64,000 nt of DNA, from positions 1-64,000 of IMG/VR virus record IMGVR_UViG_3300038603_000024. The stretch is one strand, 5' to 3'. Positions 14 through 64,000 of this stretch are shown piece by piece; positions within the stretch are counted from its first letter, which is position 1, and each line of letters begins with the position of its first letter. Both the position numbers and the translations under genes were made by a program. Under the pieces are notes generated by a model, which did not search any database, was not told the DNA's origin, and was given only the letters and a program-made list of their open reading frames with translations. This DNA is from a virus (lineage: Duplodnaviria > Heunggongvirae > Uroviricota > Caudoviricetes).

Positions 14-89
14 TGGACCACCCTCCGGGACTTGAACCCAGATCTGAAGCTTAGGAGGCAACTGCTCTATCCGGTTGAGCTAAGGGTGG
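14..89 (-). tRNA. tRNA-Arg(CCU)-like gene. It has a 7-bp acceptor stem, a 4-bp D-stem, the anticodon loop CUCCUAA, a 5-bp T-stem with a TTCAAGT loop, and 3' TCCA. Two U-U mismatches in the anticodon stem may mean a divergent or att-site-derived copy.
   Basis: I folded the reverse complement of positions 14-89 by hand into a cloverleaf. The anticodon CCT sits in a loop identical to the canonical tRNA-Arg(CCU) loop. The genomic CCA tail is at 14-16 on the complement. Confidence 0.55.
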
Positions 90-187: not shown

Positions 188-1120
188 TTAGATGCATTTG
201 GCCTTGTATGCGTTAATGGCCTTGGCGTTTAGGCTCTTCGCCACGTCTTTCCATTCTAGCCCCATCCCAGCCAGTTCGTCAGCGCTTTCCTTCTTGACGT
301 CATTGCCGAACCACCTTGCGAAGTCACCGATGCGCTTGAAGTCAAATTCACCGTCACAAGCTTCGGACGCTGCTTGTTGGATACGTGCGTCAGTAATGAA
401 GGCATCGCAGAAGGCCAACACATTGGCAGGGATCTCTACCTTTGCAGTCGCTGCTGCTTTGGTTTTCTTGACCCGGTGAGCCTCACATTTCACCTTGCAA
501 ATCATTTTGGAATAGTCCTCACGACTTGCCCGACGTGGCGACAAAACAAATCCCTCCCCTGGTCCTGAAATATCCCACATCGCCTTAATGTATGGATCTT
601 CCTTGCCAATGCTTTCAGCTAGGTCGGACAGCTCCTGCGCTTTAGCCCCAACATCCTTGTCGTCAAAAAGGTTTAGCTCGAACTCTTTCATAATCGGCAG
701 GACTTCAACCCCATCGACATTAGGAACCATCTCACTGATAACCTCTGGGTCACTGCACACTTCACCAGTGCTTAGGTCTTGGATCGCAAAGACAAAGAAC
801 ATCTTCTTAGCAATGTTGCTTACTGCGTCACTCTTTTGGACACCCGGTCCAGCCCATTCTCCGTAAACGGCACAGTTCATCGGGAAGTCGCTTGGGTTCA
901 GAGTGTCCACAAAGCCTGCAAAGCCAAAGTTGTCGTCTCCAACCTTAATGATCCGGCTGCGAGACTGAGCGTAAAGTCCGCCCTCATCTCGAACAATTGC
1001 AGCGTTAGTCCCGTGCAGTTTGATTTTCGCAATAAAGTTTCGCTCAGTCATTCCGTATCGACGTGCATTTTTCACAAAGTGAGAAAAGCTTTCGACGCTT
1101 GGGTACTTATGAAATTCCAT
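188..1120 (-). CDS. RNA ligase, Rnl2 family (T4 Rnl2-like nucleotidyltransferase).
   Basis: Motif I KLHGTNAAI contains the lysine adenylylation site. YGEWAGPGVQK, EGFVLSP and KVKCEAH line up with Rnl2 motifs III to V. An AGGAGA ribosome-binding site precedes the ATG. Confidence 0.8.
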   Translation of the reverse strand: MEFHKYPSVESFSHFVKNARRYGMTERNFIAKIKLHGTNAAIVRDEGGLYAQSRSRIIKVGDDNFGFAGFVDTLNPSDFPMNCAVYGEWAGPGVQKSDAVSNIAKKMFFVFAIQDLSTGEVCSDPEVISEMVPNVDGVEVLPIMKEFELNLFDDKDVGAKAQELSDLAESIGKEDPYIKAMWDISGPGEGFVLSPRRASREDYSKMICKVKCEAHRVKKTKAAATAKVEIPANVLAFCDAFITDARIQQAASEACDGEFDFKRIGDFARWFGNDVKKESADELAGMGLEWKDVAKSLNAKAINAYKAKCI

Positions 1121-1172
1121 GTCAGTTCTCCTGTTTGTTAACTCTTGTCAGCTTCGGTGTAGGCGCTGGGCG

Positions 1173-1952
1173 TCATACTGAGATAGGCGCTTTAATGACT
1201 GGATGTGGGTCATATCCAATCAGCTCAAAGTCCTCATACTTGAATGCAAAGATGTCGCTGACCTCTGGGTTTGTCCACATTCCCGGAAGGGGCTTAGAGC
1301 AACGTGACAGTTGCAACTCCACTTGCTCAACATGGTTCAAGTAGATATGAGCGTCACCAATCGTGTGAATAAGCTCACCAGGCTTATACCCAGTCACTTG
1401 AGCAATCATCATTTGCAGAAGCGCATATGAGGCGATATTGAATGGAACGCCCAAGAACATATCCGCAGACCGCTGGTACAGTTGCATATGCAGCTTCTCG
1501 CCAATAATGCGAACCTGCCATAGCGTATGGCATGGGGGCAAGGCCATCTCAGGCACATCGGCAGGATTCCATGCGGATACGATTAATCGCCTACTGTTCG
1601 GTGACGAATTAATGTCCTTTACCAGCCGTGCGATTTGGTCAACCCCGCCAAAGTCACGCCATTGCTTGCCGTATACTGGCCCTAGATCTCCATTGTCATC
1701 AGCCCACTCATCCCAGATAGAAACGCTATTGTCTTGCAGGTACTTGATGTTGGTTTCGCCAGACAAGAACCACAGGAGTTCATGGATGATAGACTTTAGA
1801 TGTACGCGCTTGGTGGTGACGATTGGGAATCCATCGCTCAAATCATATCGTGACTGCATCCCGAAGTGGGATATTGTGCCCGTTCCAGTCCTATCATCGC
1901 ATACCGTCCCGTTTTCTAGAATGAACTGCAACGCATCATGATACTGTTTCAT
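1173..1952 (-). CDS. thyA: Thymidylate synthase.
   Basis: The N-terminus DRTGTGT...[27 protein letters not shown] is the canonical ThyA signature. Confidence 0.95.
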
Positions 1953-2146
1953 CCTCTAAACATCTCCTTGTGCGGCTCAAAGTCTCCACACTTGTCACTG
2001 AAGTCACTAAACGCAATCGGCGCGTTGTCTGGGTCATGTGACCACCACTTACGCGCGCCCTCTGCGACATCTGGCGAAAAGTTGCGGGGACATTTTCGGT
2101 TGACGCACTCCGCACTGCAAAACGTCTTGTCCAGATAACAGATCAT
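1949..2146 (-). CDS. Small Cys-rich protein (65 aa), possibly zinc-binding. Translationally coupled to thyA through an ATGA overlap.
   Basis: ORF listed in the track, with several Cys pairs. It overlaps thyA by 4 nt. Confidence 0.4.
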
Positions 2147-2313
2147 TCATTATCCACCCTGTCTAAAATTTCTAGCGCCTGAGATGGGAACACGTTTTCC
2201 ACCCAGTCCCTGTATTCTTCATGCAACTGCTCTGCGATAGCCCCGCTTTCCTTTACGCCCCAATGGTATAGGACTGACTCAAATCTCTCTTGCAGCGTCA
2301 AATCTTTAGCCAT
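2143..2313 (-). CDS. Hypothetical 56-aa protein (MAKDLTLQERFESVLYHWGV...). Coupled to its neighbours by TGATG and TAATG overlaps.
   Basis: Hand-translated. The ORF is below the 60-aa track cutoff and shows start/stop overlaps at both ends. Coordinates are approximate to within a few nt. Confidence 0.35.
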   Translation of the reverse strand: MAKDLTLQERFESVLYHWGVKESGAIAEQLHEEYRDWVENVFPSQALEILDRVDNE

Positions 2314-2450
2314 TAGAACACAGGCTCCCCATCCTTAATCCAGTATTGCAGATTGGCAATCACAACCCCGTTTCGGTCATACACATACGGGGCTTCCTTT
2401 GTGGACAACATTCCTTGCGCGTGCAAATCAGCGCTCATGTCTGGTGGCAT
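2313..2450 (-). CDS. Hypothetical 45-aa protein, starting at the internal Met MPPDMSADL.
   Basis: A GAGGAG ribosome-binding site lies 8 nt upstream of this internal ATG. The longer listed ORF (2313..2543) would overlap the upstream gene. Confidence 0.35.
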   Translation of the reverse strand: MPPDMSADLHAQGMLSTKEAPYVYDRNGVVIANLQYWIKDGEPVF

Positions 2451-2487
2451 TTTATTATCTCCTCTATGTAAGTGACCTAATTCATTT

Positions 2488-2763
2488 TCACTGGAGCAGG
2501 CTAATAACGTAGCCCATGCCAAAGAACATGGTGACTTTAACAACCGTGCTCAAAGTCACCATCCACAGATTGTCATTTTCGTCATCGACACTTTGGATGA
2601 CAAGCAAGGTAATAAGAGTAGTGATCCCCCATGAGTATACAAACTCAAGCTGGTGAAAGTTGAACGCCGGGACAACATGCCAGTTGAATAGCTTCATAAC
2701 TACAAACGCTTTGTACATCGACAGTGGGAACCAAAGCGCAATCGCGGTCAAAAATTTAAGCAT
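2488..2763 (-). CDS. Small integral membrane protein (91 aa, 2-3 TM segments).
   Basis: Hydrophobic segments are visible in the translation. It is the first gene of the leftward operon. Confidence 0.45.
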   Translation of the reverse strand: MLKFLTAIALWFPLSMYKAFVVMKLFNWHVVPAFNFHQLEFVYSWGITTLITLLVIQSVDDENDNLWMVTLSTVVKVTMFFGMGYVISLLQ

Positions 2764-2820
2764 CTTTTCTCTCCTAAGTGTTAGACCTACCCCATTTCTA
2801 GAGTAGGTCTGTGTTGCTGT

Positions 2821-5676
2821 CTAGGTCAAATCTACGATTTCACAAACTCCGGCGCTACAGGCTAGAGTGCTAGACCCTTTGGTCGTGTCTTCGCGCTCGA
2901 ACTCAGCTAGGCCAGACCAGTCAATCGCGCTGGGCATCTTGGCAAGCATGGCCTCGTATTCCTCGCGTGTGCAGTCCTGATATGGTGCCTGCTGGTACGT
3001 GTGATCCGAGTGAGGCAGGAAGCTAATCCCGCTAACCTCATCAAAGTGCTTGTAGACCCAAGCGCCAACTTCAAGCCACTCATGATCTCGCACAGAAACC
3101 GTAACAGACGGCTTATGCTCACACCAGTGACGCTGATATGTCAGCCAGAACTCAAGCTGTTCCAGGGCTGTCATGTCGTTGCGCGTGATAGCACCTTCTG
3201 GCGACTTCATAGGGAAGCTGAAAACCGTAGTGGTATCAGGCTTCATCACGTCAGGCTCATTGGGAATGCCCTGCGACTTCATGAACTCCGTCAGCGGATC
3301 TTTGTTGTCACCTCGAACAGTTCGGATGTAGTAGTCGCTGTGACGCGCGTGGATGCCGCTTGCGGTATCTGTTAGCTGGCTAACCGTTCCCGATGGCTTC
3401 ACACACGTGATAGCTGCCGACTGTGGAATGCCAAGGCGTTCTGCCCATTCCTTGTTGGTGTCGATTGCGGTTTGGCGGAGGGTGTCCAAAACTCGCGGCA
3501 GAGGGGGCTCTGAGTAACCGCACATGCCTACATCATTAAGTACTGAACAATCCATAATACCTGTTAGGCTTACACCAAGAAGGCGCTCCTCTTCAGTATT
3601 CTCACGCCAAATATCGCGCAGATACGGGAAGTGGGTGTAGGTGCTTTGGATGGTGCCAAGGATGGTGGCCAGTTTTACCTTTCGTTTCAGGTCTTCAAGC
3701 GTATCATCTGCACGGCATACTACCTCTGTTAGATTGCAAAAGGAATACGGGCGCAAGATAATTTCACTATTTCCTGTCACAATGCCATTAAATGTCCCGC
3801 GCGACGTTTCAGGCTCAGTGAAGCAATACGTCATCTCATAGCGGTCAAGAGGCTCAATCGAAGCAACGCGAACAAACCGACGCGCATCACGCTGAGGGCT
3901 TTTGCCATTGTGATCAAGTCGGCTCAGGTTAAGACCCATTTCCATGAGGTCGTAAGCGTCAGAGCTGTTAATCAGGATGCGCTTTGACTCTTTGCAGAAG
4001 TACTCCTTCATGCCGCCGCGACCGTCAGGCATTTCACGATAGCCAGCGGGTGCTGCAGCTACAACCTTGGCTCGGACTCCCATAGTGGTAAGCATGAGGC
4101 GAAGGCGGTCCAGAAAATCGTGGTCAACAGACGCCAACTGGAACGAAACGCCATGTGTGCTGCGTAGAATTGTTCCGTCAGCATCAAGAAGCCCAGCCAG
4201 CCAGTTCAAGCGATATTCCAGCGTTGCATCCATAGGCACGAATGACTTGTCCATCATAGGCCCGTGATTCCACACTTTGCGCTCAGTTTTCGAACCGTCT
4301 GGGTAAACTTTGCCAATCAAGCGGTCAATGCATGGATACTTAGGCTCATAGACCCAAGAGCGTGTCATGCCCTTGTTGCCATCCCCGGAGTAGAAGCCTT
4401 GAGAGTAAGCATCAATCTGGGGATCATTGTCACCTTCAACGACAGGCATATCAAACTTTTCAAGCTTGTCGCCAACTTTGATATCGCTGGTCTCGACAAA
4501 ACCCTTCCCGTCAATCACCCAGCGGTGATTCCAGGTACAATCAAGATATGATCCATCAGTCAATGTGACGCGAACAAGGTCAGCTTCACCGGCAGCATAT
4601 GGAACTACAGTGGCCCAGTTTTCACCGTTCCAGATTTCAGTTTCCTCGCCAACAGTTTCAACGATTGGCTTGTATCCGCTGGACGTCAGGATTTCGGTCT
4701 CAGGCGAGCAACAGCATGGATTTGTCCCGAAGTCCCAATCAGTATCACGGCGACCATTCTTAGCAGCCTGATTAACGCTTGCTTGCCGATTGAAGATGCC
4801 GCGCTCACCGGACTTGCTTTCCATCAGGGCCAGCCATTCACGCATAAAGCTTTCCGCGTCGGGCTTGTCGGTGAATGCAACGGAGTTGTTGGCAAGAGCG
4901 CGCTGAGGATCAGTCACCCACCACTGGCCTGACTTGGCATGGCGCATACGGTCATCACTGAGGTTGCTGAGGCTAATCATAGCAGAGCGACGAACGCCAC
5001 CCACAACCACAATCTCGCCAATCTTACACATCAGGTCGTGACACTCGATGGATGTCAGCTTGCGGCCCTGTGCTTTCTTGAATACGCCAATGGTGAAGTT
5101 AAACAGATCAACCAGCGGATCAGGGCCAGAAGCGCGACCGCCAAATGTCTTGAGCTTGGCACCTGCGGGGCGGACTGCAGACACGTCCCACGTGGGGGTA
5201 TGACCGGACCACAAGTGTTCTAGCAGTTCACGATATGATTTGGCCCATCCCTCCTTACTGTCTTCAACGACAATAACCGGCACATCACCATCCATCTTCT
5301 CAGGCACTTCTGGAAGCTTGTTTACATACTGCCGCTCAACACTGAAGCCCACGCCAGTGCCACACAGCAGGATAAACATTGCCTCATCAAACGAGCGCGG
5401 ATGATCTACTGGCAGGTATGAGCAGTTGTAGATGCAAGTATTGTCTCGATCAGCAGCAGGACCAGCGGTCATCAGTGCGCGCATCGACGGGGCAGTTTCC
5501 AGACCACGAATAGCTTGGCTCAGTTCTTCAACAGTCTCGGCATCAGCGCCAGACGGAACGACGATATTCTCAATATATCGGTCTACAGTTTCATCCCAAG
5601 TTTCTCGCCGGTTTTCTTCTGGCAGCCATCGTGCATAGCGGCTTACCGCGATAAACTTCTGATAGTCATTCATCAA
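2821..5676 (-). CDS. Ribonucleotide reductase catalytic subunit, probably class II cobalamin-dependent, interrupted by an intein.
   Basis: Removing the intein restores the active-site motif N-P-C-S-E. A C-terminal CSAGVC redox pair is present. No NrdB gene is in the window. A GAAGGA ribosome-binding site precedes the start. Confidence 0.8.
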   Translation of the reverse strand: MMNDYQKFIAVSRYARWLPEENRRETWDETVDRYIENIVVPSGADAETVEELSQAIRGLETAPSMRALMTAGPAADRDNTCIYNCSYLPVDHPRSFDEAMFILLCGTGVGFSVERQYVNKLPEVPEKMDGDVPVIVVEDSKEGWAKSYRELLEHLWSGHTPTWDVSAVRPAGAKLKTFGGRASGPDPLVDLFNFTIGVFKKAQGRKLTSIECHDLMCKIGEIVVVGGVRRSAMISLSNLSDDRMRHAKSGQWWVTDPQRALANNSVAFTDKPDAESFMREWLALMESKSGERGIFNRQASVNQAAKNGRRDTDWDFGTNPCCCSPETEILTSSGYKPIVETVGEETEIWNGENWATVVPYAAGEADLVRVTLTDGSYLDCTWNHRWVIDGKGFVETSDIKVGDKLEKFDMPVVEGDNDPQIDAYSQGFYSGDGNKGMTRSWVYEPKYPCIDRLIGKVYPDGSKTERKVWNHGPMMDKSFVPMDATLEYRLNWLAGLLDADGTILRSTHGVSFQLASVDHDFLDRLRLMLTTMGVRAKVVAAAPAGYREMPDGRGGMKEYFCKESKRILINSSDAYDLMEMGLNLSRLDHNGKSPQRDARRFVRVASIEPLDRYEMTYCFTEPETSRGTFNGIVTGNSEIILRPYSFCNLTEVVCRADDTLEDLKRKVKLATILGTIQSTYTHFPYLRDIWRENTEEERLLGVSLTGIMDCSVLNDVGMCGYSEPPLPRVLDTLRQTAIDTNKEWAERLGIPQSAAITCVKPSGTVSQLTDTASGIHARHSDYYIRTVRGDNKDPLTEFMKSQGIPNEPDVMKPDTTTVFSFPMKSPEGAITRNDMTALEQLEFWLTYQRHWCEHKPSVTVSVRDHEWLEVGAWVYKHFDEVSGISFLPHSDHTYQQAPYQDCTREEYEAMLAKMPSAIDWSGLAEFEREDTTKGSSTLACSAGVCEIVDLT
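3769..4713 (-). mobile_element. Intein (about 315 aa) with a LAGLIDADG homing-endonuclease domain, inserted directly after the catalytic Cys of the reductase.
   Basis: The element starts C-C-S-P-E-T-E-I-L, which fits Hint block A. LAGLIDADG blocks are YSQGFYSGDGNKG and LNWLAGLLDADGTI. It ends IVTGN, followed by a +1 Ser. Confidence 0.75.
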
Positions 5677-5772
5677 AGTTTCAATTCCTTCTCTATGATG
5701 TTCAAGATGGCCTTACGCGCCTGAACTTCGGGCACGACATAGTGTCGCCGTTTCAATTTCTGCGCCATCACT

Positions 5773-6249
5773 TCACAGCGCCACGAATGTTTTGAACATA
5801 AGCCACTTAGCACAGTGGTTATATGCGTCAATGCCAATGCCGTGATCTGCGTTTACAAGGAATGCGCGCTTATGATCAATCTTGACATCATCCAAAGCGA
5901 CCCAGAGCATGTTGTCTGTTTTGTTGCGGTCTAGCCACTCATTGATTGCAGTCAGCCTGTCTACATCTGGGTAGACCGTATGCATATCCTCATGTAGGTC
6001 ATCACCAAATCCAGCGGCTACAAATTGATTGATCAGCCCTGGAATCCTGCCGTGTTGATGGAGATGCCTATTGTGAGTCGTGTTGAACACAATCTTAGCG
6101 CCCGACGCATCAATGATTTTCCGCAAAACAGCGACACACCTATCGTCTAGCTCCTGCTCCCAGGAGGCCATCTTGTTGAACAGAAATGACGTGTATGGAA
6201 TCATAGGTCCATCAATGTCTAGGAATATTACTTTATCCGGCATCTTCAC
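5773..6249 (-). CDS. HAD-superfamily hydrolase, a putative nucleotide or polynucleotide phosphatase.
   Basis: The N-terminal motif VIFLDIDGP fits the DxDG nucleophile motif. It is ATGA-coupled to the dut stop. Confidence 0.65.
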   Translation of the reverse strand: MKMPDKVIFLDIDGPMIPYTSFLFNKMASWEQELDDRCVAVLRKIIDASGAKIVFNTTHNRHLHQHGRIPGLINQFVAAGFGDDLHEDMHTVYPDVDRLTAINEWLDRNKTDNMLWVALDDVKIDHKRAFLVNADHGIGIDAYNHCAKWLMFKTFVAL

Positions 6250-6680
6250 TCTCCCGTTGACCCGAAACCGCCGGTCCCGCGCTCTGTTTGTTTTTCAATC
6301 TCTTCAACCTCAACAATGTTGGTTTCGACATTCTTGACCAGCATAGCTTGTGCAATCCGCTCGCCTACTTTGGGGAAGTACAAAAAGATCCCGGCTGTGC
6401 CATCATATGTCAGCTTAACTTTGACCTCGCCAAGGTAATCCGCATCAATCACCCCAACCGCATTAGCAAGACGCATATCGCCCTTAAACCCATGCCCGCT
6501 GCGGCTGTAGATCTTCACATGGTACCCGTCCGGGATATCCATGATAAGACCGGTTCCGTATGTCGCGGTATTCCCACGGATTTCACGCGACACTGCCACC
6601 AGATCAAAGCAAGCCGCGCCATCAGTCTGGAACGCAGGAATCTCCGCGTCTTCATGAATGCGCTTAATTCGCAGATCCAT
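6246..6680 (-). CDS. dut: dUTP diphosphatase.
   Basis: dUTPase motifs are present: VIDADYLGEV, GERIAQ and C-terminal RGTGGFGSTG. I took the start at MDLRIKRI, which has a GGAG ribosome-binding site; the listed ORF extends further 5'. Confidence 0.9.
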   Translation of the reverse strand: MDLRIKRIHEDAEIPAFQTDGAACFDLVAVSREIRGNTATYGTGLIMDIPDGYHVKIYSRSGHGFKGDMRLANAVGVIDADYLGEVKVKLTYDGTAGIFLYFPKVGERIAQAMLVKNVETNIVEVEEIEKQTERGTGGFGSTGE

Positions 6681-6904
6681 ATATAGTACTCCTTTATCAG
6701 GGTGAACGCCAAATGTAGCCGAAAACAGCCAAAACGGCAAGTCATCACGCCGCGTAAAACGCACTATTAGACGTGACAAAATGTGACCTGATTGACTCTC
6801 CTCGTGCCATCACCACTACCACCGTAAATAGCGCCGGTCAACGCAAAACCGCTATACTTCCGGTTTATGTCGTGCTATCCATATAGCAGAGCAATGGAGG
6901 TCAC

Positions 6905-12106: not shown

Positions 12107-12572
12107 ATTTCCTCTCCTTATCCTGCTATCAACATATACGTGTAGCGCATGGTGTCAAGGGGGGATGGTGGGGTCGAGTGGTATAAGAAAATGTTATATG
12201 CCCTAGCCAGAGCTATAAGCTTAACTTATTTGACTTCCGGTTCACTATGCTATAAAAAGAAAAAAGGCCCGCAGCGCTACAACGCTCGGAAGGTAAAGCG
12301 CCAGGATTACAGCCTACGTTGGGATTTGACCTCCAATATGGCGGATTTTGGTTGACCAGCCTAGAAAATGGTCAGGCAGGCGTCAGGAAACCGGCGGGGC
12401 GAGAGCCAAAGGTAAACTAGTACTGGGCGAAAGCTGGGCGTGGTCTGCCCCCCGTGGATAGGATAGGTAGGTATCTCCACGGCAGGAAAAGGGATCAGTA
12501 TACCCAGAGTAAGGCTTGACCAATCCTCTGGCATGGTGCAGTTTGCATGAAGTAAAGAATAGGAGAGACCGA

Positions 12573-13871
12573 ATGACTAATGGTGAAATTTACGTCGGTG
12601 ATGAGCTGGTGTCCCATACCGGACGCCGTAAGCTGAGCGATATCGTTGCAGAGTATGAAGAGCGGCTTTCTAGGATTGATGATGAGTTTGAGGAATTCGA
12701 GCGGGCGCAGACAGCACTGAAAGCGGCTTGTTGTGTGTCGGGCGTGTGGCCCTACGGAAACCTTGATGTGGGCCACGTGGGTAAGCGTCAGATGAAGGAA
12801 TTTCTTCTGAGGTCCGCTTGGCGTTGCGCATATAAGGAGTACAATCTTGAGTACCTTGCAAGCGCATCCGATAAGAGTAAAATTGAGCGCATGATGGAAG
12901 ATCCGCCAGAGTTCAATATGATGAATCTCTATGAGTGGTTTGGTGATCTTGCACAGAACCCTCGTGCGTCAATCTTGCGCGGATTAGCTGAGGTGTTCGC
13001 GGATCTTGACCCGGCATTCAAATCCCATGAAAAAATGAAAGTCGGCGTCAAGGGGCTTCCCAAGCGCGTCATCCTGTCCAATGTCGGAGATTACGGGTGG
13101 GGCCGTGATAGGCTCTTGTCAATCTTGAACTCTATTGCGGCAATCAAGGGAGAGAAGCTGGCGGACTATAAGGAAACAAATGACATTTTGGATAATGGCG
13201 ACTGTTTGCGGGATACGCGAGGCGTTTGGCTGAAGCGTTTTGCAAACGGCAATGGGCACTTGTTCTTTTCACCTGATACGCTGAAGGCTGTGAACTTGGG
13301 GCTGGCGGAATATTATGGGGATGTCCTGCCTGATTGCCCTGAGGCGCGCCCTGCCAAGAAGGCCAGCACCGAAGTAGCTAAGGATCTGCAATATTTCCCA
13401 ACGCCTAAGGCTGTGATTGATAGCGTTATGAATAACGCCTATTACATGAAAGGGAAGAAGGTTCTTGAGCCATCTTGCGGCTGTGGTCGTTTTCTTGAGG
13501 CGATTGCAGTAGAGGGTGGCGATGTGTTTGGCATTGAGTACGACTCGGGCCGAGCGGCTGAGGCGCGCGCGAAAGGCTTTAAAGTTCTTCAAGCTAACTT
13601 CTTGGAGGTCGCCCCGTCTCCCGACTTTGATATGGTTGTTATGAACCCGCCCTTTTATGGCCGTCACTATGCCAAGCATGTTCGTCACGCCCTTGAGTTT
13701 CTGAAGCCCGATGGAACGCTTTGGTCTGTGCTTCCGTCTACAGCTCGATATGATCATGGGGAACTTGATGACTTGAAACCATACTGGTACGATCTTCCTG
13801 TCGGGTCGTTCCGGGAAAGCGGCACTAATATCAGCACGTCGGTTGCAAGGATCCGCAAGAAGCAAACATAA
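12573..13871 (+). CDS. Orphan N6-adenine DNA methyltransferase with a roughly 280-aa N-terminal domain of unknown function.
   Basis: Motifs QYFPTP, VLEPSCGCGRFL (SAM motif I) and MNPPF (motif IV). I took the start at MTNGEIYV, which has an AGGAGAG ribosome-binding site. Confidence 0.8.
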   Translation: MTNGEIYVGDELVSHTGRRKLSDIVAEYEERLSRIDDEFEEFERAQTALKAACCVSGVWPYGNLDVGHVGKRQMKEFLLRSAWRCAYKEYNLEYLASASDKSKIERMMEDPPEFNMMNLYEWFGDLAQNPRASILRGLAEVFADLDPAFKSHEKMKVGVKGLPKRVILSNVGDYGWGRDRLLSILNSIAAIKGEKLADYKETNDILDNGDCLRDTRGVWLKRFANGNGHLFFSPDTLKAVNLGLAEYYGDVLPDCPEARPAKKASTEVAKDLQYFPTPKAVIDSVMNNAYYMKGKKVLEPSCGCGRFLEAIAVEGGDVFGIEYDSGRAAEARAKGFKVLQANFLEVAPSPDFDMVVMNPPFYGRHYAKHVRHALEFLKPDGTLWSVLPSTARYDHGELDDLKPYWYDLPVGSFRESGTNISTSVARIRKKQT

Positions 13872-50058: not shown

Positions 50059-52908
50059 TTATTTGCGACCTTTCCCGCGCAGTCTGTCCAATCGGTTGTT
50101 GCCCTTGCGTAGATTGGACGTGCCACCAAGGATGCGTTGGGGCTGATGTGCCGCCATCTGCTCCCGCATTTGTGCAACCCGTGGCTTCCTCAGTCCTACC
50201 GCGTGTGAGTAGTGCAGCATGATTGTGGTGTCTGCTTTGTCAGGGGACCGGCCAAGGCGTTCCTTGACTTTATCCTTCGGCTCTAGCTCAACCACCTGCT
50301 GCGCCACAGACGATGCGCCAGACTTCCATTCTTTGACACGGAAAGCACACAGTTCAACCAGCAATTCAGGATCTGGGGGGAGGGCAATATCATCGCCATT
50401 GTTCGGATCAAGCGCGTCACGCAGCGCCCACAGTGCCTCAGCTTTGAAGTTGCGGAATTTGTACAGCCCGTTGCGAGAGGGTCGCGTTGACTTGGTGGAT
50501 GATACAAAGCCGTAGCATTCAATCCCAGCCTCTGCCAGCTTGGTAAGGGCATCACCACCGTAACCGCCACCAGCATCGACAACCACCCGGCACTGTCCTT
50601 TGACCTGCTTCATGATCTCAGAAGCGGCTGTCATTCCGTCTGGGGTTTGCGATCCTGGAACAGTGTGGAAATGTCCGAACCATGCCCCGTGCCGTGCTTG
50701 TACAACAGTCCTATCTGCACCGCCCTGTGCGATGTCAGAGGCAACGGCAGTCATCGGAATATCGTCAGGCGGAGTGTCGATCCACCGGGCCTGTGCCAAG
50801 CGTACCCACTCGGAGGGGATGACTTGTTTCTCATCGTCTTCTTGGTCTGCGGTAAAGTCGCCATACAGCAGCTGGGAACGCAGAGGCTCAGGCAACGCCA
50901 TGACGCGCGCCTTGTAGCCCTTGTCATTGGCTAGGTACGGATTGTCAGCAACAAGAGACGGGATGAATGTTCGGCTCATGGCAATATACGGCTCACCGTC
51001 TACGATATGCTCACCGGGGCCATCAACCCAAACCGTCTTGCCCCTTACGATAATAGACCACCGCAGTTCACCCGGTTGTGCGCGCTGCGTCCGCTCCGCC
51101 TTGATCCACGGGTCAAACTCTTCTAACAGCCATTGCCCGTCACCACCTCGCGGCGGGTTGGTGCCTAGGATAATTCGGCATCGTTGGTCTGGTCGAGTAG
51201 TACGAAGCCAAGCAAACAGGGAGAACACCTGCTCTTTTAGGAACTCGCCAGCCTCATCAAACGCCATATAGTCCCGCGCGTTACCGGCGTGTTTTCGCCA
51301 GTCGTCGGCTTGCTGAAGGCCCGCAAACTTTAGGCTTTTCCCATCCCCCCATGTCCAAAGCTTCTCGACTTTGTTGTAACTTGCATCGGGAATTTTTTCA
51401 AAGACCTCATGAGAGAACGCAATCAGACCATCAAGCTGCGTGGCTTCACGGCGGAAGATGATGCCAGTGTGATGATACAGGGACGGACACCCGACCTCAA
51501 GCGCACTATTGTGAGTGACGATGAAGCTATCGCCCAAGCAATAACTGTGATCAGCGTTATCAACTTGGATACACTGCATAGGGACAGGCTCAACCGGCTG
51601 CACGTCTGCGATGTACCGGCGCAAAACGTACTCAGGTTTCGGCGTCAGGTTCTGCAACTTCGCCTTCCTCGGCAGGTTAAAAACCCTCTTGTCAGTGTTG
51701 AATTTCAGTCTGTAGTGATCATTGTGTCTGCTGTTCTTTTTGCTCAGCTCTTTCACTTTGATCGTGCTTTTAATTCCAAGCGTTCCAAGAAGTCTGTGGA
51801 CATCCTCAATAAGATCCTTGTCTGAAAAGGACACCTCACAATCACCTCTGCCACGGCAGGCGGTTCCGTCTGTATCCATAAGCCCGCGAAGCAAGTTGAG
51901 CCTCTGCTCATGCGAAGAGCTGAAATATACTTCCGGGATTCTCTTTATGACGAACTCGTTTTCTGACTTACTCCAATCTGTCTCCAGCAAACGGAACAGA
52001 TCTTTCCCTAAGTCTTTAGAATGCGCGGCCAGCATTTTCCTTCCTGGACGTTTCATCTCCTTGTATGAAAAGTCATAGACGTCTAGGTATGGCTTAAGCA
52101 CTTGCAAGTCGTCATCCAGCATGGCGATTCTAGAGTGGTATTTATCACCATCTCCGAGCCAGATGCCAAACACATATGGATCAATTGGCAAGTCAGCGCT
52201 TGGAAGCTGAATAGGCTTCATCACTTGAACGCTATGATTTTTCTCACCCCTTTTAGACGTAAGGGTTTCAAAAATCTCTTGCGTGGTTCGCGCCGATGGC
52301 CTTGGAGGCTCACTGTAGTTATATTTCCTCAGTGAGTTATTTTTCTTTGTAGTGTCGCTTTGCAACTTCCCCTTTGATGGGTTGGACTTCGCACGGCTCG
52401 GGCGGCTAGCCTTTCTAGCTTCCCTAAACTCAGGAGTTTTTCTAGATGCGCTTTTGCGCTCTGCGCTGGTCATTGTGATCCACTCGTGGCGAGCATCACA
52501 AATGAAGCTTTCACCCGTGTTGAATGTAACACGATATGCAACGTCTGGGGTGAACACCTCAGATTTAGCAACGACATTTGTTGGAAGCCCATCCGAGCCA
52601 AACACCACGTCACCGACCTTCAAAGTCTCCATGGTTTGCGGGCCTCGATTCGCTGTGTTGATTTTTGTGTTTAAAATCAAGGCCTTGCCGCCACCACTAC
52701 CCCCGCCAAAGAGGAGAATATCCGCCTCACTCAGCAACGCATCTGTCTGCGCTCCGGGGTTTGGGATAAACGGCGCTGTTCCGATAGCTGCGTCTACCGT
52801 CTCCTCAAGCTCTTTTCTGGCTTCGGGCGGCATTGCGTCGAGGATTTTCAGGAGTTCATCAATATCCATGTAGGGCCTGCAAACAAAGAAATAGGTTGCT
52901 TGGACCAT
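50059..52908 (-). CDS. terL: Terminase large subunit interrupted by an intein.
   Basis: Excising the intein restores the Walker A motif GGGSGGGK-S. The Walker B motif is YMAFDEAGEF, and a C-terminal nuclease region is present. Confidence 0.8.
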   Translation of the reverse strand: MVQATYFFVCRPYMDIDELLKILDAMPPEARKELEETVDAAIGTAPFIPNPGAQTDALLSEADILLFGGGSGGGKALILNTKINTANRGPQTMETLKVGDVVFGSDGLPTNVVAKSEVFTPDVAYRVTFNTGESFICDARHEWITMTSAERKSASRKTPEFREARKASRPSRAKSNPSKGKLQSDTTKKNNSLRKYNYSEPPRPSARTTQEIFETLTSKRGEKNHSVQVMKPIQLPSADLPIDPYVFGIWLGDGDKYHSRIAMLDDDLQVLKPYLDVYDFSYKEMKRPGRKMLAAHSKDLGKDLFRLLETDWSKSENEFVIKRIPEVYFSSSHEQRLNLLRGLMDTDGTACRGRGDCEVSFSDKDLIEDVHRLLGTLGIKSTIKVKELSKKNSRHNDHYRLKFNTDKRVFNLPRKAKLQNLTPKPEYVLRRYIADVQPVEPVPMQCIQVDNADHSYCLGDSFIVTHNSALEVGCPSLYHHTGIIFRREATQLDGLIAFSHEVFEKIPDASYNKVEKLWTWGDGKSLKFAGLQQADDWRKHAGNARDYMAFDEAGEFLKEQVFSLFAWLRTTRPDQRCRIILGTNPPRGGDGQWLLEEFDPWIKAERTQRAQPGELRWSIIVRGKTVWVDGPGEHIVDGEPYIAMSRTFIPSLVADNPYLANDKGYKARVMALPEPLRSQLLYGDFTADQEDDEKQVIPSEWVRLAQARWIDTPPDDIPMTAVASDIAQGGADRTVVQARHGAWFGHFHTVPGSQTPDGMTAASEIMKQVKGQCRVVVDAGGGYGGDALTKLAEAGIECYGFVSSTKSTRPSRNGLYKFRNFKAEALWALRDALDPNNGDDIALPPDPELLVELCAFRVKEWKSGASSVAQQVVELEPKDKVKERLGRSPDKADTTIMLHYSHAVGLRKPRVAQMREQMAAHQPQRILGGTSNLRKGNNRLDRLRGKGRK
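51508..52683 (-). mobile_element. Intein (about 392 aa) with a LAGLIDADG homing endonuclease, inserted in the terminase P-loop between the Walker lysine and Ser.
   Basis: It starts ALILNTKI (block A, with an apparent Ala1). The Hint core is KVGDVVFGSDG...VAYRVTFNTGESFICDARHEW. LAGLIDADG blocks are FGIWLGDGDK and LLRGLMDTDGT. It ends FIVTHN, with +1 Ser. Confidence 0.7.
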
Positions 52909-63994: not shown

Positions 63995-64000
63995 GATGTT

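What the first reader, a model, noticed from the sequence alone, without database searches (positions are those of the whole stretch)
2821..5676. Ribonucleotide reductase interrupted by a 315-aa LAGLIDADG intein immediately after the catalytic cysteine
Excising residues 322-636 (nt 3769-4713) restores the conserved N-P-C-S-E active-site turn. The intein begins CC, so the boundary is ambiguous by one residue. It ends GN rather than HN, a rare but known penultimate variant. This is the second intein in one phage, both carrying homing endonucleases, which points to active intein traffic in this phage population. No NrdB-type partner gene is visible, so a class II cobalamin-dependent enzyme is most likely.
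Basis: partly seen in the sequence, partly recalled or inferred. Interest (0 to 1): 0.5.

Follow-up and report, generated by a model that had tools for sequence, protein, structure and literature searches.

The report
Intein inside a phage ribonucleotide reductase
A phage gene for a vitamin-B12-dependent ribonucleotide reductase is interrupted, right next to its catalytic cysteine, by a self-splicing protein element (intein) that carries its own homing endonuclease; this is real, but it belongs to an intein family already annotated in many phages.

Summary
ORF 2821-5676 (-) probably starts at the ATG at 5673. It encodes a class II, monomeric RTPR-type ribonucleotide reductase. Its best solved relative is L. 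leichmannii RTPR (E 2.6e-55), with the active-site and redox cysteines aligned.

Residues 322-636 (nt 3769-4713) are a 315-aa intein:
- About 85 of the 120 listed relatives (up to 92% identical in the extein) lack exactly this segment and read FGTNPCSEIILRP.
- 33 full-length relatives carry it at the same point, and two carry endonuclease-less mini versions.
- An AlphaFold model (pLDDT 93) matches PI-SceI-type intein/LAGLIDADG structures.

Homologues read NPC|CV..., which settles the "CC" ambiguity. The Gly-Asn end is a family trait.

A second intein sits in the terminase P-loop. It is unrelated and has class-3-type residues. No nrdB was found.

The element is not new in kind. The family is present in 340 deposited phage genomes, including the annotated ICP1 NrdA intein. 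The NPC|SEI site is also that of the NrdJ-1 split intein.

Three points are modestly interesting:
- Relatives sit one codon earlier, with the catalytic Cys as +1.
- Some relatives end in Gln.
- This subclade combines an invariant Cys1 with the class-3 Trp/Cys/Thr triplet.

The parts
2821..5673 (-). Precursor gene: class II (RTPR-type) ribonucleotide reductase with intein. 950 codons from the ATG at 5673; stop codon at 2821-2823.
   Evidence: ORF list; start context and homologue N-termini; phrog_367 ribonucleotide reductase E 9e-184; TIGR02505 296.8 bits with the insert present.
4714..5673 (-). N-extein (residues 2-321 in 951-aa numbering). It ends in the finger-loop motif G-T-N319-P-C321; C321 is the thiyl-radical Cys (codon 4714-4716). 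It also contains Cys85, equivalent to L. leichmannii C119.
   Evidence: Alignment to 1L1L: GTNPCGEISLANGEPCNL against GTNPCSEIILRPYSFCNL, and NNCWF against YNCSY; coordinates.
3769..4713 (-). Intein, 315 aa (residues 322-636): Cys1 (4711-4713) to Gly635-Asn636 (3769-3774).
   Evidence: Precisely absent from about 85 of the listed relatives and present in 33 full-length alleles; empty-site DNA alignment; AF2 plus Foldseek; profile hits to solved inteins.
4432..4713 (-). N-terminal splicing (HINT) subdomain, intein residues 1-94. Block A is C-C-S-P-E-T-E-I-L. Block B is C-T381-W-N-H384-R-W386 (Thr B7, His B10, Trp B12).
   Evidence: Invariant columns C1, T6, L9, T10, C59, T60, H63 in alignment A1; aligned to Npu DnaE blocks A and B.
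3874..4431 (-). Double-motif LAGLIDADG homing endonuclease domain, approximately intein residues 95-280. Motif 1 is AYSQGFYSGD432G; motif 2 is LNWLAGLLDAD500G. Domain limits are approximate.
   Evidence: PF14528 33 bits; G110-D111-G112 and W171-L-A-G...D177, D179, G180 invariant in 22 sequences; model helices 102-108 and 165-179, each followed by beta strands; Foldseek hits to PI-SceI, PI-PfuI, I-DmoI; the natural mini-inteins P0052 and P0075 lack this part.
3769..3873 (-). C-terminal splicing subdomain, intein residues 281-315. Block F is M-T-Y-C618-F-T-E-P (Cys at F4). Block G is F-N-G-I-V-T634-G635-N636.
   Evidence: C297, E300, G306, F308, N309, G310 invariant; hhalign places C297 opposite the F4 Asp of NrdJ-1, and the BIL alignment gives the same position.
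2824..3768 (-). C-extein (residues 637-951). It begins with Ser637 (+1 nucleophile, codon 3766-3768) and Glu638. It contains Cys647, equivalent to L. leichmannii C419, and the C-terminal C940-x4-C945 pair.
   Evidence: Alignment to 1L1L; coordinates; TIGR02505 positions 378-723 matched.
51508..52683 (-). The 'other' intein of the same genome: 392 aa inside the large terminase gene (ORF 50059-52908), inserted in the Walker A motif (GGGSGGGK|A-L-I-L-N...F-I-V-T-H-N|S). It carries a LAGLIDADG domain.
   Evidence: PF14528 44.9 bits and Hom_end 25 bits; after excision the extein hits phrog_979 terminase large subunit at E 1.6e-36; sequence read.

Best explanation
The gene encodes a precursor of a monomeric, adenosylcobalamin-dependent (class II, RTPR-type) ribonucleotide reductase. 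The precursor cannot work until a 315-residue intein removes itself.

The intein lies in the active-site finger loop, between the radical-bearing Cys321 and Ser637. The most likely route is the standard class 1 pathway:
1. Cys322 (intein residue 1) undergoes an N-to-S acyl shift, turning the C321-C322 peptide bond into a thioester.
2. The hydroxyl of Ser637 (+1) attacks it, giving a branched ester.
3. Asn636 cyclises and releases the intein. There is no penultimate His to assist; Gly is the family norm.
4. An O-to-N shift makes the native N-P-C-S-E loop.

The excised intein is a two-motif LAGLIDADG homing endonuclease. It is expected to cut intein-free alleles of the same gene around the NPC/SEI codons during co-infection. 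Repair from the intein-plus copy then copies the element in (homing).

Shown here: the anatomy, the fold, the precise presence/absence polymorphism, conservation of the catalytic residues, and purifying selection.
Inferred, not shown: actual splicing, the identity of the first nucleophile, and endonuclease activity and target.
For: Extein:
- TIGR02505 (RTPR) rises from 296.8 to 324.3 bits when residues 322-636 are removed, and the Pfam barrel domain hit becomes significant.
- 1L1L matches at E 2.6e-55, with N406/C408/E410/C419, C119 and the C-terminal Cys pair matched.

Intein:
- LAGLIDADG_3 scores above its cutoff.
- The splicing-domain profile hits Npu DnaE, gp41-1, a BIL domain and Ssp DnaB.
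- AF2 gives pLDDT 93.3 and pTM 0.90. Foldseek top hits are homing-endonuclease inteins: 7qsu E 2.4e-12, then 1vde, 1dq3, 2cw7. Mini-inteins and I-DmoI follow.

Population:
- 33 intein-plus alleles, 2 mini-intein alleles and about 85 intein-free alleles among the 120 best relatives, all with the same junction.
- DNA-level empty site.

Conservation in 38 complete family members: Cys1 38/38, Thr-x-x-His invariant, both LAGLIDADG Asp residues invariant, F4 Cys 38/38, terminal Asn or Gln, +1 Ser or Cys.

Selection: dN/dS is about 0.05-0.12 for the extein and splicing domain. In the endonuclease domain dN is 0.09-0.33 while dS is saturated.

Precedents:
- The NrdJ-1 split intein splices rapidly at native NPC/SEI junctions with an obligate Ser+1 (PMC13123727).
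- The CIV RNR intein splices with a C-terminal Gln (PMC4031507).
Against: - No experiment: splicing and DNA cleavage are inferred.
- The single sequence scores below the curated cutoffs of the intein models (TIGR01445 17.2 against 24.5; PF14890 14.3 against 35.8).
- The canonical assisting residues are missing. G6 is Gly rather than His, F4 is Cys rather than Asp, and the block F His present in some relatives (KNHTG) is Ser here.
- Position 2 is Cys instead of the near-invariant Val, giving three consecutive cysteines whose effect on splicing is unknown.
- TIGR02505 stays just under its equivalog cutoff (324.3 against 340.05). NTP versus NDP substrate is therefore not settled.
Confidence: 0.87

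Rival explanations
1. It is an intein, but it splices by a class-3-like route. The block F cysteine (C618), not Cys322, makes the first attack on the N-terminal junction and forms a block F branched thioester. The N-extein is then passed to Ser637. Alternatively, both nucleophiles could be used.
For: - The three residues that define the class 3 signature are all present at the defined positions: Trp386 at B12 (two residues after the block B His), Cys618 at F4, Thr634 at G5. There is also a Ser at +1, as in almost all class 3 inteins (definition in PMC2807308; positions).
- F4 Cys is invariant in 38 of 38 members.
- PMC2807308 notes that 3 of 37 WCT inteins do start with Ser or Cys and left their mechanism open.
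- Class 3 inteins are proposed to derive from a standard phage intein (PMC3196547).
Against: - Cys1 is invariant in 38 of 38 members across 45-98% identity. That is not expected if it were dispensable.
- Trp at B12 is replaced by Phe in 11 of 38 members, including all pre-Cys members.
- F4 Cys is the second most common residue at that position in inteins generally (PMC4031507).
- The splicing-domain profile hits class 1 inteins best. No natural class 3 intein appears among its 40 sequence hits.
- Grafting WCT onto a class 1 intein does not create class 3 splicing (PMC7664689).
Confidence: 0.07
2. The intein is decayed and no longer splices, so this phage's reductase gene is effectively a pseudogene. 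The phage would rely on host dNTP synthesis.
For: - The penultimate His and the block F Asp and His are missing.
- The Val2->Cys change is unique to this allele among 38.
- Single-sequence scores against the curated intein HMMs are below threshold.
Against: - The 950-codon frame is intact.
- The missing residues are family-wide features of 38 conserved members, not private lesions.
- dN/dS is about 0.1 in both the extein and the splicing domain.
- The identical protein is found on contigs from 35 blocks of the collection.
- The nearest relative (P0025, 98% identical intein) differs at positions 2-3 only conservatively.
Confidence: 0.04
3. The insert is not an intein but a permanent extra domain, or an assembly chimera that joins a LAGLIDADG endonuclease gene to the reductase.
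For: phmmer of the insert alone against PDB sequences found nothing significant (best E 0.035). PHROGs has no family for it.
Against: - The insert splits the N-P-C-S-E catalytic turn.
- HINT halves flank the endonuclease in the high-confidence model.
- Junction residues are canonical (Cys1, Asn, Ser+1).
- The same architecture recurs in dozens of independent assemblies and in annotated phage genomes.
Confidence: 0.01

Closest known systems
NrdJ-1 split intein (environmental NrdJ gene; PDB 8ubs)
   Same: Same host enzyme type and exactly the same insertion point. Its native flanks are NPC and SEI, with an obligate Ser at +1 (PMC13123727; the 8ubs chain ends ...VHA-SEI). The splicing domains are detectably homologous (hhalign probability 93%, 22% identity).
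   Different: NrdJ-1 is naturally split, has no endonuclease domain, ends in the canonical His-Asn, and has Asp at F4 and Val at B12. The window's intein is contiguous, carries a LAGLIDADG endonuclease, ends Gly-Asn, and has Cys at F4 and Trp at B12.
Vibrio phage ICP1 NrdA intein and its relatives in deposited phage genomes (Rheinheimera Barba phages, Staphylococcus, Corynebacterium, phiCbK-like phages; distantly SPbeta bnrdE)
   Same: Same intein family: 42% identity over all 315 residues (E 3e-68). The block A (CVAPETKILT), YCFTE, FNG..TG motifs and the two LAGLIDADG motifs are shared. It is annotated as an intein in GenBank HQ641347. 340 deposited phage genomes have a match.
   Different: - The hosts are class I NrdA/NrdE genes with an adjacent nrdB.
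- The insertion is one codon earlier (SSNL|C...G-Q|C-Q-E), so +1 is the catalytic Cys itself.
- The intein ends in Gln rather than Asn, and B12 is Phe.
- No deposited phage shows more than about 43% identity to the window's intein.
Chilo iridescent virus RNR (CIV RIR1) intein
   Same: A viral RNR large-subunit intein that splices with an atypical C-terminal Gln (PMC4031507). Many members of the present family also end in Gln, including 6 of the 33 full-length RTPR alleles.
   Different: I could not obtain its sequence, so membership in this family is not tested. The window's own intein ends in Asn.
PI-SceI / TliVMA / PI-PfuI (solved homing-endonuclease inteins)
   Same: Same bipartite architecture: a HINT splicing domain interrupted by a two-motif LAGLIDADG endonuclease. 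Foldseek E 1e-8 to 2e-12, query TM-score 0.57-0.64.
   Different: Only 9-14% sequence identity. They are larger (about 360-540 residues in the solved chains) with extra DNA-recognition regions, sit in different host proteins, and have canonical His-Asn ends (the last from my own knowledge of those inteins).
Class 3 inteins (mycobacteriophage Bethlehem DnaB, Msm/Mch DnaB1)
   Same: Trp B12, Cys F4, Thr G5 and Ser+1 are all present. They are phage-associated (PMC2807308).
   Different: Class 3 inteins lack an N-terminal nucleophile, whereas here Cys1 is invariant. In the Bethlehem DnaB prototype the penultimate residue is His, whereas here it is Gly. Trp is not conserved across the wider family.

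Membership tests
Intein (HINT protein-splicing element) | In-frame insert at a conserved site of a host protein, absent from orthologous alleles; removal restores the host motif | tested here: met
   About 85 intein-free relatives read FGTNPCSEI; 33 full-length and 2 mini alleles are occupied at the same point. DNA empty-site alignment shows a 945-nt insert.
Intein (HINT protein-splicing element) | Nucleophile (Cys/Ser) as first intein residue, and Cys/Ser/Thr as first C-extein residue | tested here: met
   Cys322 and Ser637. Cys1 in 38 of 38 members; +1 is Ser or Cys throughout the family.
Intein (HINT protein-splicing element) | Block B Thr-x-x-His | tested here: met
   T381-W-N-H384. T60 and H63 are invariant in A1 and align with Npu DnaE T-K-D-H.
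Intein (HINT protein-splicing element) | C-terminal Asn (or Gln/Asp) able to cyclise | tested here: met
   Asn636. The family uses Asn or Gln.
Intein (HINT protein-splicing element) | Penultimate His (G6) and block F Asp (F4)/His assisting residues (common, not obligatory) | tested here: not met
   G6 is Gly (37 of 38 members) and F4 is Cys (38 of 38). There is no block F His in this allele. Functional inteins lacking these residues are documented (PMC4031507, PMC5050341).
Intein (HINT protein-splicing element) | HINT fold | tested here: met
   AF2 pLDDT 93.3. Foldseek probability 1.00 to PI-SceI and TliVMA, and to the Ssp DnaB, Npu DnaB, Mtu RecA and gp41-1 mini-inteins.
Intein (HINT protein-splicing element) | Curated HMM thresholds (TIGR01445 intein_Nterm, PF14890 Intein_splicing) | tested here: not met
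   17.2 bits against 24.5, and 14.3 bits against 35.8, for the single sequence. A family profile does reach solved inteins at E 6e-6, and precomputed PF14890 hits exist for several relatives.
Intein (HINT protein-splicing element) | Demonstrated protein splicing | not testable with these tools
   Needs expression and mass analysis.
LAGLIDADG homing endonuclease (two-motif, intein-borne) | Family HMM above threshold | tested here: met
   PF14528 at 33.0 bits against 22.5.
LAGLIDADG homing endonuclease (two-motif, intein-borne) | Two LAGLIDADG helices, each ending in a catalytic acidic residue | tested here: met
   QGFYSGD432G and LAGLLDAD500G. Both Asp-Gly pairs are invariant in 22 sequences. 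Helices 102-108 and 165-179 in the model.
LAGLIDADG homing endonuclease (two-motif, intein-borne) | Site-specific cleavage of the intein-free allele | not testable with these tools
   Only indirect support: the domain is conserved (dN 0.09-0.33 with saturated dS), and the intein is sporadically distributed among close alleles.
Class II ribonucleotide reductase, monomeric RTPR type | NCBIfam equivalog TIGR02505 above trusted cutoff | tested here: inconclusive
   It is the best family by far, but scores 324.3 bits against a cutoff of 340.05 after intein removal.
Class II ribonucleotide reductase, monomeric RTPR type | Catalytic and redox residues of L. leichmannii RTPR (C119, N406, C408, E410, C419, C-terminal C731/C736 pair) | tested here: met
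   1L1L at E 2.6e-55. C85, N319, C321, E638 and C647 are aligned. The C940-x4-C945 pair has the same spacing.
Class II ribonucleotide reductase, monomeric RTPR type | No radical-generating beta subunit (nrdB/nrdF) partner | tested here: met
   tblastn with an NrdB extein finds nothing better than E 0.13 in the window. No PF00268 gene in the 7.2 kb beyond the window start, or in related contigs. The far side of the window was not examined beyond position 64000.
Class II ribonucleotide reductase, monomeric RTPR type | Adenosylcobalamin dependence and NTP substrate | not testable with these tools
   Biochemical property.
Class 3 intein | No nucleophile at intein position 1 | tested here: not met
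   Cys1 is invariant.
Class 3 intein | Trp B12 / Cys F4 / Thr G5 triplet, with Ser or Thr at +1 | tested here: met
   W386, C618, T634, S637. Trp is present in 27 of 38 family members, the rest having Phe.
Class 3 intein | Block F branched intermediate; splicing independent of residue 1 | not testable with these tools
   Needs mutagenesis of C322 and C618.

The most novel reading that the evidence does not exclude
This RNR-specialised intein lineage may be a natural bridge between class 1 and class 3 inteins. It keeps an invariant Cys1 but also carries the full class 3 triplet (Trp B12, Cys F4, Thr G5), a Ser at +1 and no penultimate His. It might therefore use the block F cysteine as an alternative or redox-gated first nucleophile. 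That would make RNR maturation conditional, for example through disulfides among the -1, 1, 2 and F4 cysteines. The lineage has also changed its insertion register by one codon (NP|C against NPC|S), swapping the +1 nucleophile between the catalytic Cys and the following Ser.
Probability: 0.1. Interest if true: 0.6.

Novelty: new member of a known kind. Interest (0 to 1): 0.3.

Why it matters
As it stands this is a clean, well-supported annotation, not a discovery. A marine-type uncultured podovirus-like phage carries a B12-dependent RTPR whose activity depends on intein excision.

It matters in three practical ways:
- Intein-bearing RTPR alleles need the intein removed before they are used as phylogenetic or ecological markers of virioplankton. 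Marine RNR surveys already do this by hand (PMC12918982). About a quarter of the closest 120 relatives carry it, though that list is ranked by score and so favours intein-plus alleles.
- The family offers a natural series for studying how inteins tolerate loss of the penultimate His. The series covers Asn- and Gln-ended inteins, Ser and Cys at +1, full-length and mini forms, and Trp and Phe at B12.
- Contiguous relatives of the fast, promiscuous NrdJ-1 split intein at the same NPC/SEI site could be mined for protein-engineering tools.

If the class 1/class 3 hybrid reading were true, it would bear on the proposed phage origin of class 3 inteins.

Tried and rejected
- phmmer of the insert alone against PDB sequences gave only insignificant hits. 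A family profile and a structure model were needed instead.
- PHROGs has no family for the intein.
- I tested whether the Ser+1 codon family (AGY against TCN) marks intein-plus alleles, as a possible co-conversion or immunity marker. Both codon types occur in both intein-plus and intein-minus alleles, so I rejected this.
- I tested whether the two inteins of the window are copies of each other. They share only generic LAGLIDADG-domain similarity: 31% over 59 residues, hhalign confined to the endonuclease. Rejected.
- tblastn for nrdB and class I nrdA in the window was negative.
- An Rfam scan of the whole window found only the tRNA. There is no riboswitch or intron-like RNA near the gene.
- GC content of the intein (about 0.48-0.53) is barely below that of the exteins (about 0.53-0.55) and is not informative.
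- dN/dS for the endonuclease domain could not be computed because dS is saturated in every pair.
- A neighbour-joining tree of the intein C-terminal part, meant to count register shifts, is unbootstrapped and poorly resolved. I do not rely on it beyond 'at least one shift'.
- Literature searches for a described one-codon register difference, or for RNR inteins at the thiyl Cys, returned nothing. That is no evidence of novelty.
- Tori & Perler 2011, which examined WCT inteins that start with Cys or Ser, is not held in the library.
- I could not obtain the CIV RIR1 sequence to test whether it belongs to this family.


Full report
OBSERVATION. The minus strand carries one uninterrupted ORF from 5676 to 2821 (951 codons). 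Its first codon is TTG and its second is ATG. Every homologue begins MN(D/E)Y, and a GAAGGA lies a few bases upstream. The real start is therefore almost certainly the ATG at 5673. The protein reads ...D-F-G-T-N319-P-C321 | C322-C-S-P-E-T-E-I-L ...

THE HOST PROTEIN.
- With the insert present, NCBIfam's RTPR model (TIGR02505) is the top hit at 296.8 bits. After removing residues 322-636 it rises to 324.3 bits. That is just under the curated equivalog cutoff of 340.05 and far above any other RNR model.
- The Pfam barrel domain becomes significant only after excision.
- The best solved relative is the Lactobacillus leichmannii ribonucleoside-triphosphate reductase 1L1L (E 2.6e-55). GTNPCGEISLANGEPCNL aligns with GTNPCSEIILRPYSFCNL. 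So N406/C408/E410/C419 correspond to N319/C321/E638/C647, C119 corresponds to C85, and the C-terminal Cys-x4-Cys pair is present at 940/945.
- tblastn with an NrdB extein and with class I NrdA fragments finds nothing in the 64-kb window.
- None of the contigs carrying this gene or close alleles shows a PF00268 gene nearby, including the 7.2 kb beyond the window start.

The class II assignment is therefore sound. Cofactor and NTP substrate remain inferences from homology. The viral RTPR clade is described in PMC10547690.

THE INSERT IS AN INTEIN.
- Sequence. Pfam LAGLIDADG_3 passes its cutoff (33.0 against 22.5 bits). The curated intein models score below cutoff for this single, divergent sequence, and phmmer against PDB is uninformative. 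A profile of the splicing domain alone (alignment A2) does reach solved inteins: Npu DnaE at E 6e-6, then gp41-1, a bacterial intein-like domain and Ssp DnaB. In those alignments block A (C-x-x-x-E-T-E-I-L-T) and block B (T-x-x-H) are in register.
- Structure. AlphaFold2 on a 22-sequence alignment gives pLDDT 93.3 and pTM 0.90. The best Foldseek matches in the PDB are all homing-endonuclease inteins: TliVMA at 2.4e-12, then PI-SceI, PhoVMA, PI-PfuI and PI-TkoII. Mini-inteins and the free LAGLIDADG enzyme I-DmoI follow.
- Population. Among the 120 best relatives of the whole protein, 33 full-length proteins (933-1025 aa) carry a homologous insert at the same point. Two carry 130-132-aa mini-inteins that retain only the splicing halves. 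About 85 (623-669 aa, up to 92% identical in the extein) have no insert and read FGTNPCSEI(I/V)LRPYQFCNL.
- DNA. An intein-free allele (L005) aligns at 68 of 90 nt across the junction. The window has exactly 945 extra nucleotides between the Cys321 and Ser637 codons.
- Authenticity. The identical protein is recorded on contigs from 35 blocks of the assembly collection, so the sequence is not an artefact.

BOUNDARIES AND THE 'CC' PROBLEM. 36 of 38 complete family members begin C-V. The nearest relative (P0025; intein 98% and extein 92% identical) reads NPC|CVAPETEIL. C322 is therefore intein residue 1. The third cysteine is a private Val2->Cys substitution. The spliced product is N-P-C-S-E.

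FAMILY PICTURE. Searches with the intein and with its profile found relatives only in ribonucleotide reductase genes. A junction table shows four kinds of site:
1. Alpha subunits of class I and some class II enzymes, with the intein one codon earlier. The pattern is N-(L/P) | C ... (N/Q) | C-x-E, so the +1 nucleophile is the catalytic cysteine itself. There are 23 such C-terminal junctions, nearly all ending Gly-Gln.
2. RTPR-type and one other class II subfamily, with the intein after the catalytic Cys (NPC | C ... | S-E). There are 36 junctions, 29 ending Gly-Asn and 7 ending Gly-Gln.
3. NrdB, after the iron-ligand His (E-N-V/I-H | C ... G-Q | S-E-T/M-Y-S). There are 7 junctions.
4. A single further alpha-subunit site (P0164).

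Two exteins of one subfamily differ in register: P0002 has ...GN|CAEQ and P0182 has NPC|...GQ|SEQ. RTPR-like exteins with Ala or Val after the Cys use the pre-Cys register (P0007, P0014, P0016). The register has therefore changed at least once within the lineage. A crude NJ tree does not resolve how often.

Across 38 complete inteins the counts are:
- Cys1: 38 of 38.
- F4 Cys: 38 of 38.
- G6 Gly: 37 of 38.
- G5 Thr: 36 of 38.
- B12: Trp in 27 (all Asn-ended and post-Cys) and Phe in 11.

ALREADY KNOWN RELATIVES.
- tblastn against deposited phage genomes finds the family in 340 records, all below about 43% identity. They include Vibrio phage ICP1, Rheinheimera Barba phages, Staphylococcus and Corynebacterium phages, phiCbK-like phages and, distantly, SPbeta bnrdE.
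- In ICP1 the element is annotated as an intein. It reads SSNL|CVAPETKILT ... LTGQ|CQEI, with nrdB next door.
- The exact insertion point of the window's intein, NPC|SEI, is that of the widely used NrdJ-1 split intein (PMC13123727; PDB 8ubs). NrdJ-1 is distantly homologous (hhalign 93%, 22% identity) and has Asp where this intein has Cys618.
- Phage and marine-virus RNR inteins are documented (PMC3653736). They are routinely stripped from RNR alignments (PMC12918982 and PMC6370689).

MECHANISM. The best-supported route is class 1:
1. Cys322 undergoes an N-S acyl shift.
2. The acyl group is transesterified to Ser637.
3. Asn636 cyclises.
4. An O-N shift regenerates the finger loop that carries the thiyl-radical Cys.

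The enzyme is necessarily inactive until this happens. The excised protein has both LAGLIDADG Asp-Gly pairs (D432, D500), invariant across the family. It should cut intein-free alleles and home.

Shown here: anatomy, fold, conservation, and selection. dN/dS is about 0.05-0.12 in the extein and splicing domain. In the endonuclease domain dN is 0.09-0.33 with dS saturated. Inferred: the chemistry and the DNA cleavage.

The main mechanistic rival arises because W386, C618 and T634 occupy exactly the B12, F4 and G5 positions of the class 3 'WCT' triplet, with Ser at +1 (PMC2807308). Three observations make a class 3 route unlikely, at about 7%:
- Cys1 is invariant.
- Trp alternates with Phe at B12.
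- F4 Cys is fairly common among inteins generally.

THE SECOND INTEIN AND 'TRAFFIC'. ORF 50059-52908 is a large terminase: phrog_979 at E 1.6e-36 once residues 76-467 are removed. A 392-aa intein splits its Walker A motif (GGGSGGGK | A-L-I-L-N ... F-I-V-T-H-N | S) and carries a LAGLIDADG domain. It starts with Ala and has H-E-W in block B, M-Q-C-I-Q-V in block F and T-H-N|S at the end. By sequence inspection that is the class 3 signature. It shares only generic endonuclease similarity with the RNR intein.

Intein mobility in the RNR is supported by four observations:
- Intein-plus and intein-minus alleles are interleaved: the P0030 extein is 94% identical to intein-free P0103.
- One relative's intein (P0025) is closer to this one than its extein is.
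- Endonuclease-less mini-inteins exist.
- The intein looks mosaic. Between the window and P0026, dS is 0.25 in the splicing domain, 0.61 in the extein and saturated in the endonuclease domain.

CONTEXT. The gene sits in a nucleotide-metabolism cluster with dUTPase, a HAD phosphatase, thymidylate synthase and an RNA ligase. The portal is at most 28% identical to those of Pelagibacter podophages. The RNR DNA is 74% identical to Puniceispirillum phage HMO-2011 over 469 nt. This looks like an uncultured podovirus-like phage.

VERDICT. The element is a new member of a known, already annotated intein family, at an already known insertion site. Interest is modest. It rests on the family-level oddities: the one-codon register difference, the Asn/Gln termini, and the class 3 triplet combined with Cys1. 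I could describe these but not test them functionally.

Noticed in passing
window 50059-52908 (-); intein 51508-52683: The large terminase carries a 392-aa LAGLIDADG intein inside its Walker A motif (GGGSGGGK|ALILN...FIVTHN|S). It starts with Ala and has His-Glu-Trp in block B, Cys in block F (MQCIQV) and Thr-His-Asn|Ser at the end. By eye this is the class 3 intein signature. It is unrelated to the RNR intein apart from the endonuclease fold.
   Followed up: partly
window 4708-4716 (-), residues 321-323: Three consecutive cysteines: the catalytic Cys at -1, intein Cys1 and Cys2. Position 2 is Val in 36 of 38 family members. Only this allele has Cys. The exact protein is seen on many independent contigs, so it is real. 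The effect on splicing or on redox trapping is unknown.
   Followed up: partly
P0052 and P0075 (relatives; same site as window 3769-4713): Two related RTPR alleles carry 130-132-aa mini-inteins in which the whole LAGLIDADG domain is replaced by a short linker. This is the endonuclease-loss stage of the homing cycle.
   Followed up: partly
P0020, P0150, P0168, P0170, P0178, P0180, P0181 (NrdB proteins); P0164: The same intein family also sits in the RNR small subunit, directly after the iron-ligand His (EN[VI]H|C...GQ|SE[TM]YS). It occurs once at another alpha-subunit site (..HR|C...KQ|CAIAPT). Several NrdB copies have degenerate or missing endonuclease domains. The family appears restricted to RNR genes.
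   Followed up: partly
window 3769-4713 compared with L006 (P0026): The intein looks mosaic. Against P0026, synonymous divergence is 0.25 in the splicing halves, 0.61 in the extein and saturated in the endonuclease domain. This suggests exchange of the endonuclease module, or of the splicing halves, between alleles.
   Followed up: partly
P0048, P0060, P0061, P0063, P0065, P0091 (RTPR alleles): Six of the 33 full-length RTPR inteins end Gly-Gln instead of Gly-Asn, and all six have Phe instead of Trp at block B position 12. The Asn/Trp and Gln/Phe combinations co-vary, which may be only phylogenetic.
   Followed up: no
window 14-89 (-): tRNA-Arg (anticodon CCT) next to the RNA-ligase-like gene (188-1120). 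It is the only Rfam/ARAGORN hit in the window.
   Followed up: no
window 188-6779 (-): A nucleotide-metabolism block surrounds the RNR: RNA ligase-like gene (188-1120), thymidylate synthase (1173-1952), HAD-family phosphatase (5773-6249) and dUTPase (6246-6779). Related phages have MazG instead of dUTPase upstream of the RNR (L007-L009).
   Followed up: no
window 12516-13871 (+): A 451-aa protein with DUF4942 plus a SAM-methyltransferase domain, probably a DNA methyltransferase.
   Followed up: no
L001 18214-18579 (about 2.5 kb beyond the window start): A small (121-aa) protein with a peptide-chain release factor RF-1 domain, encoded in the same phage contig.
   Followed up: no
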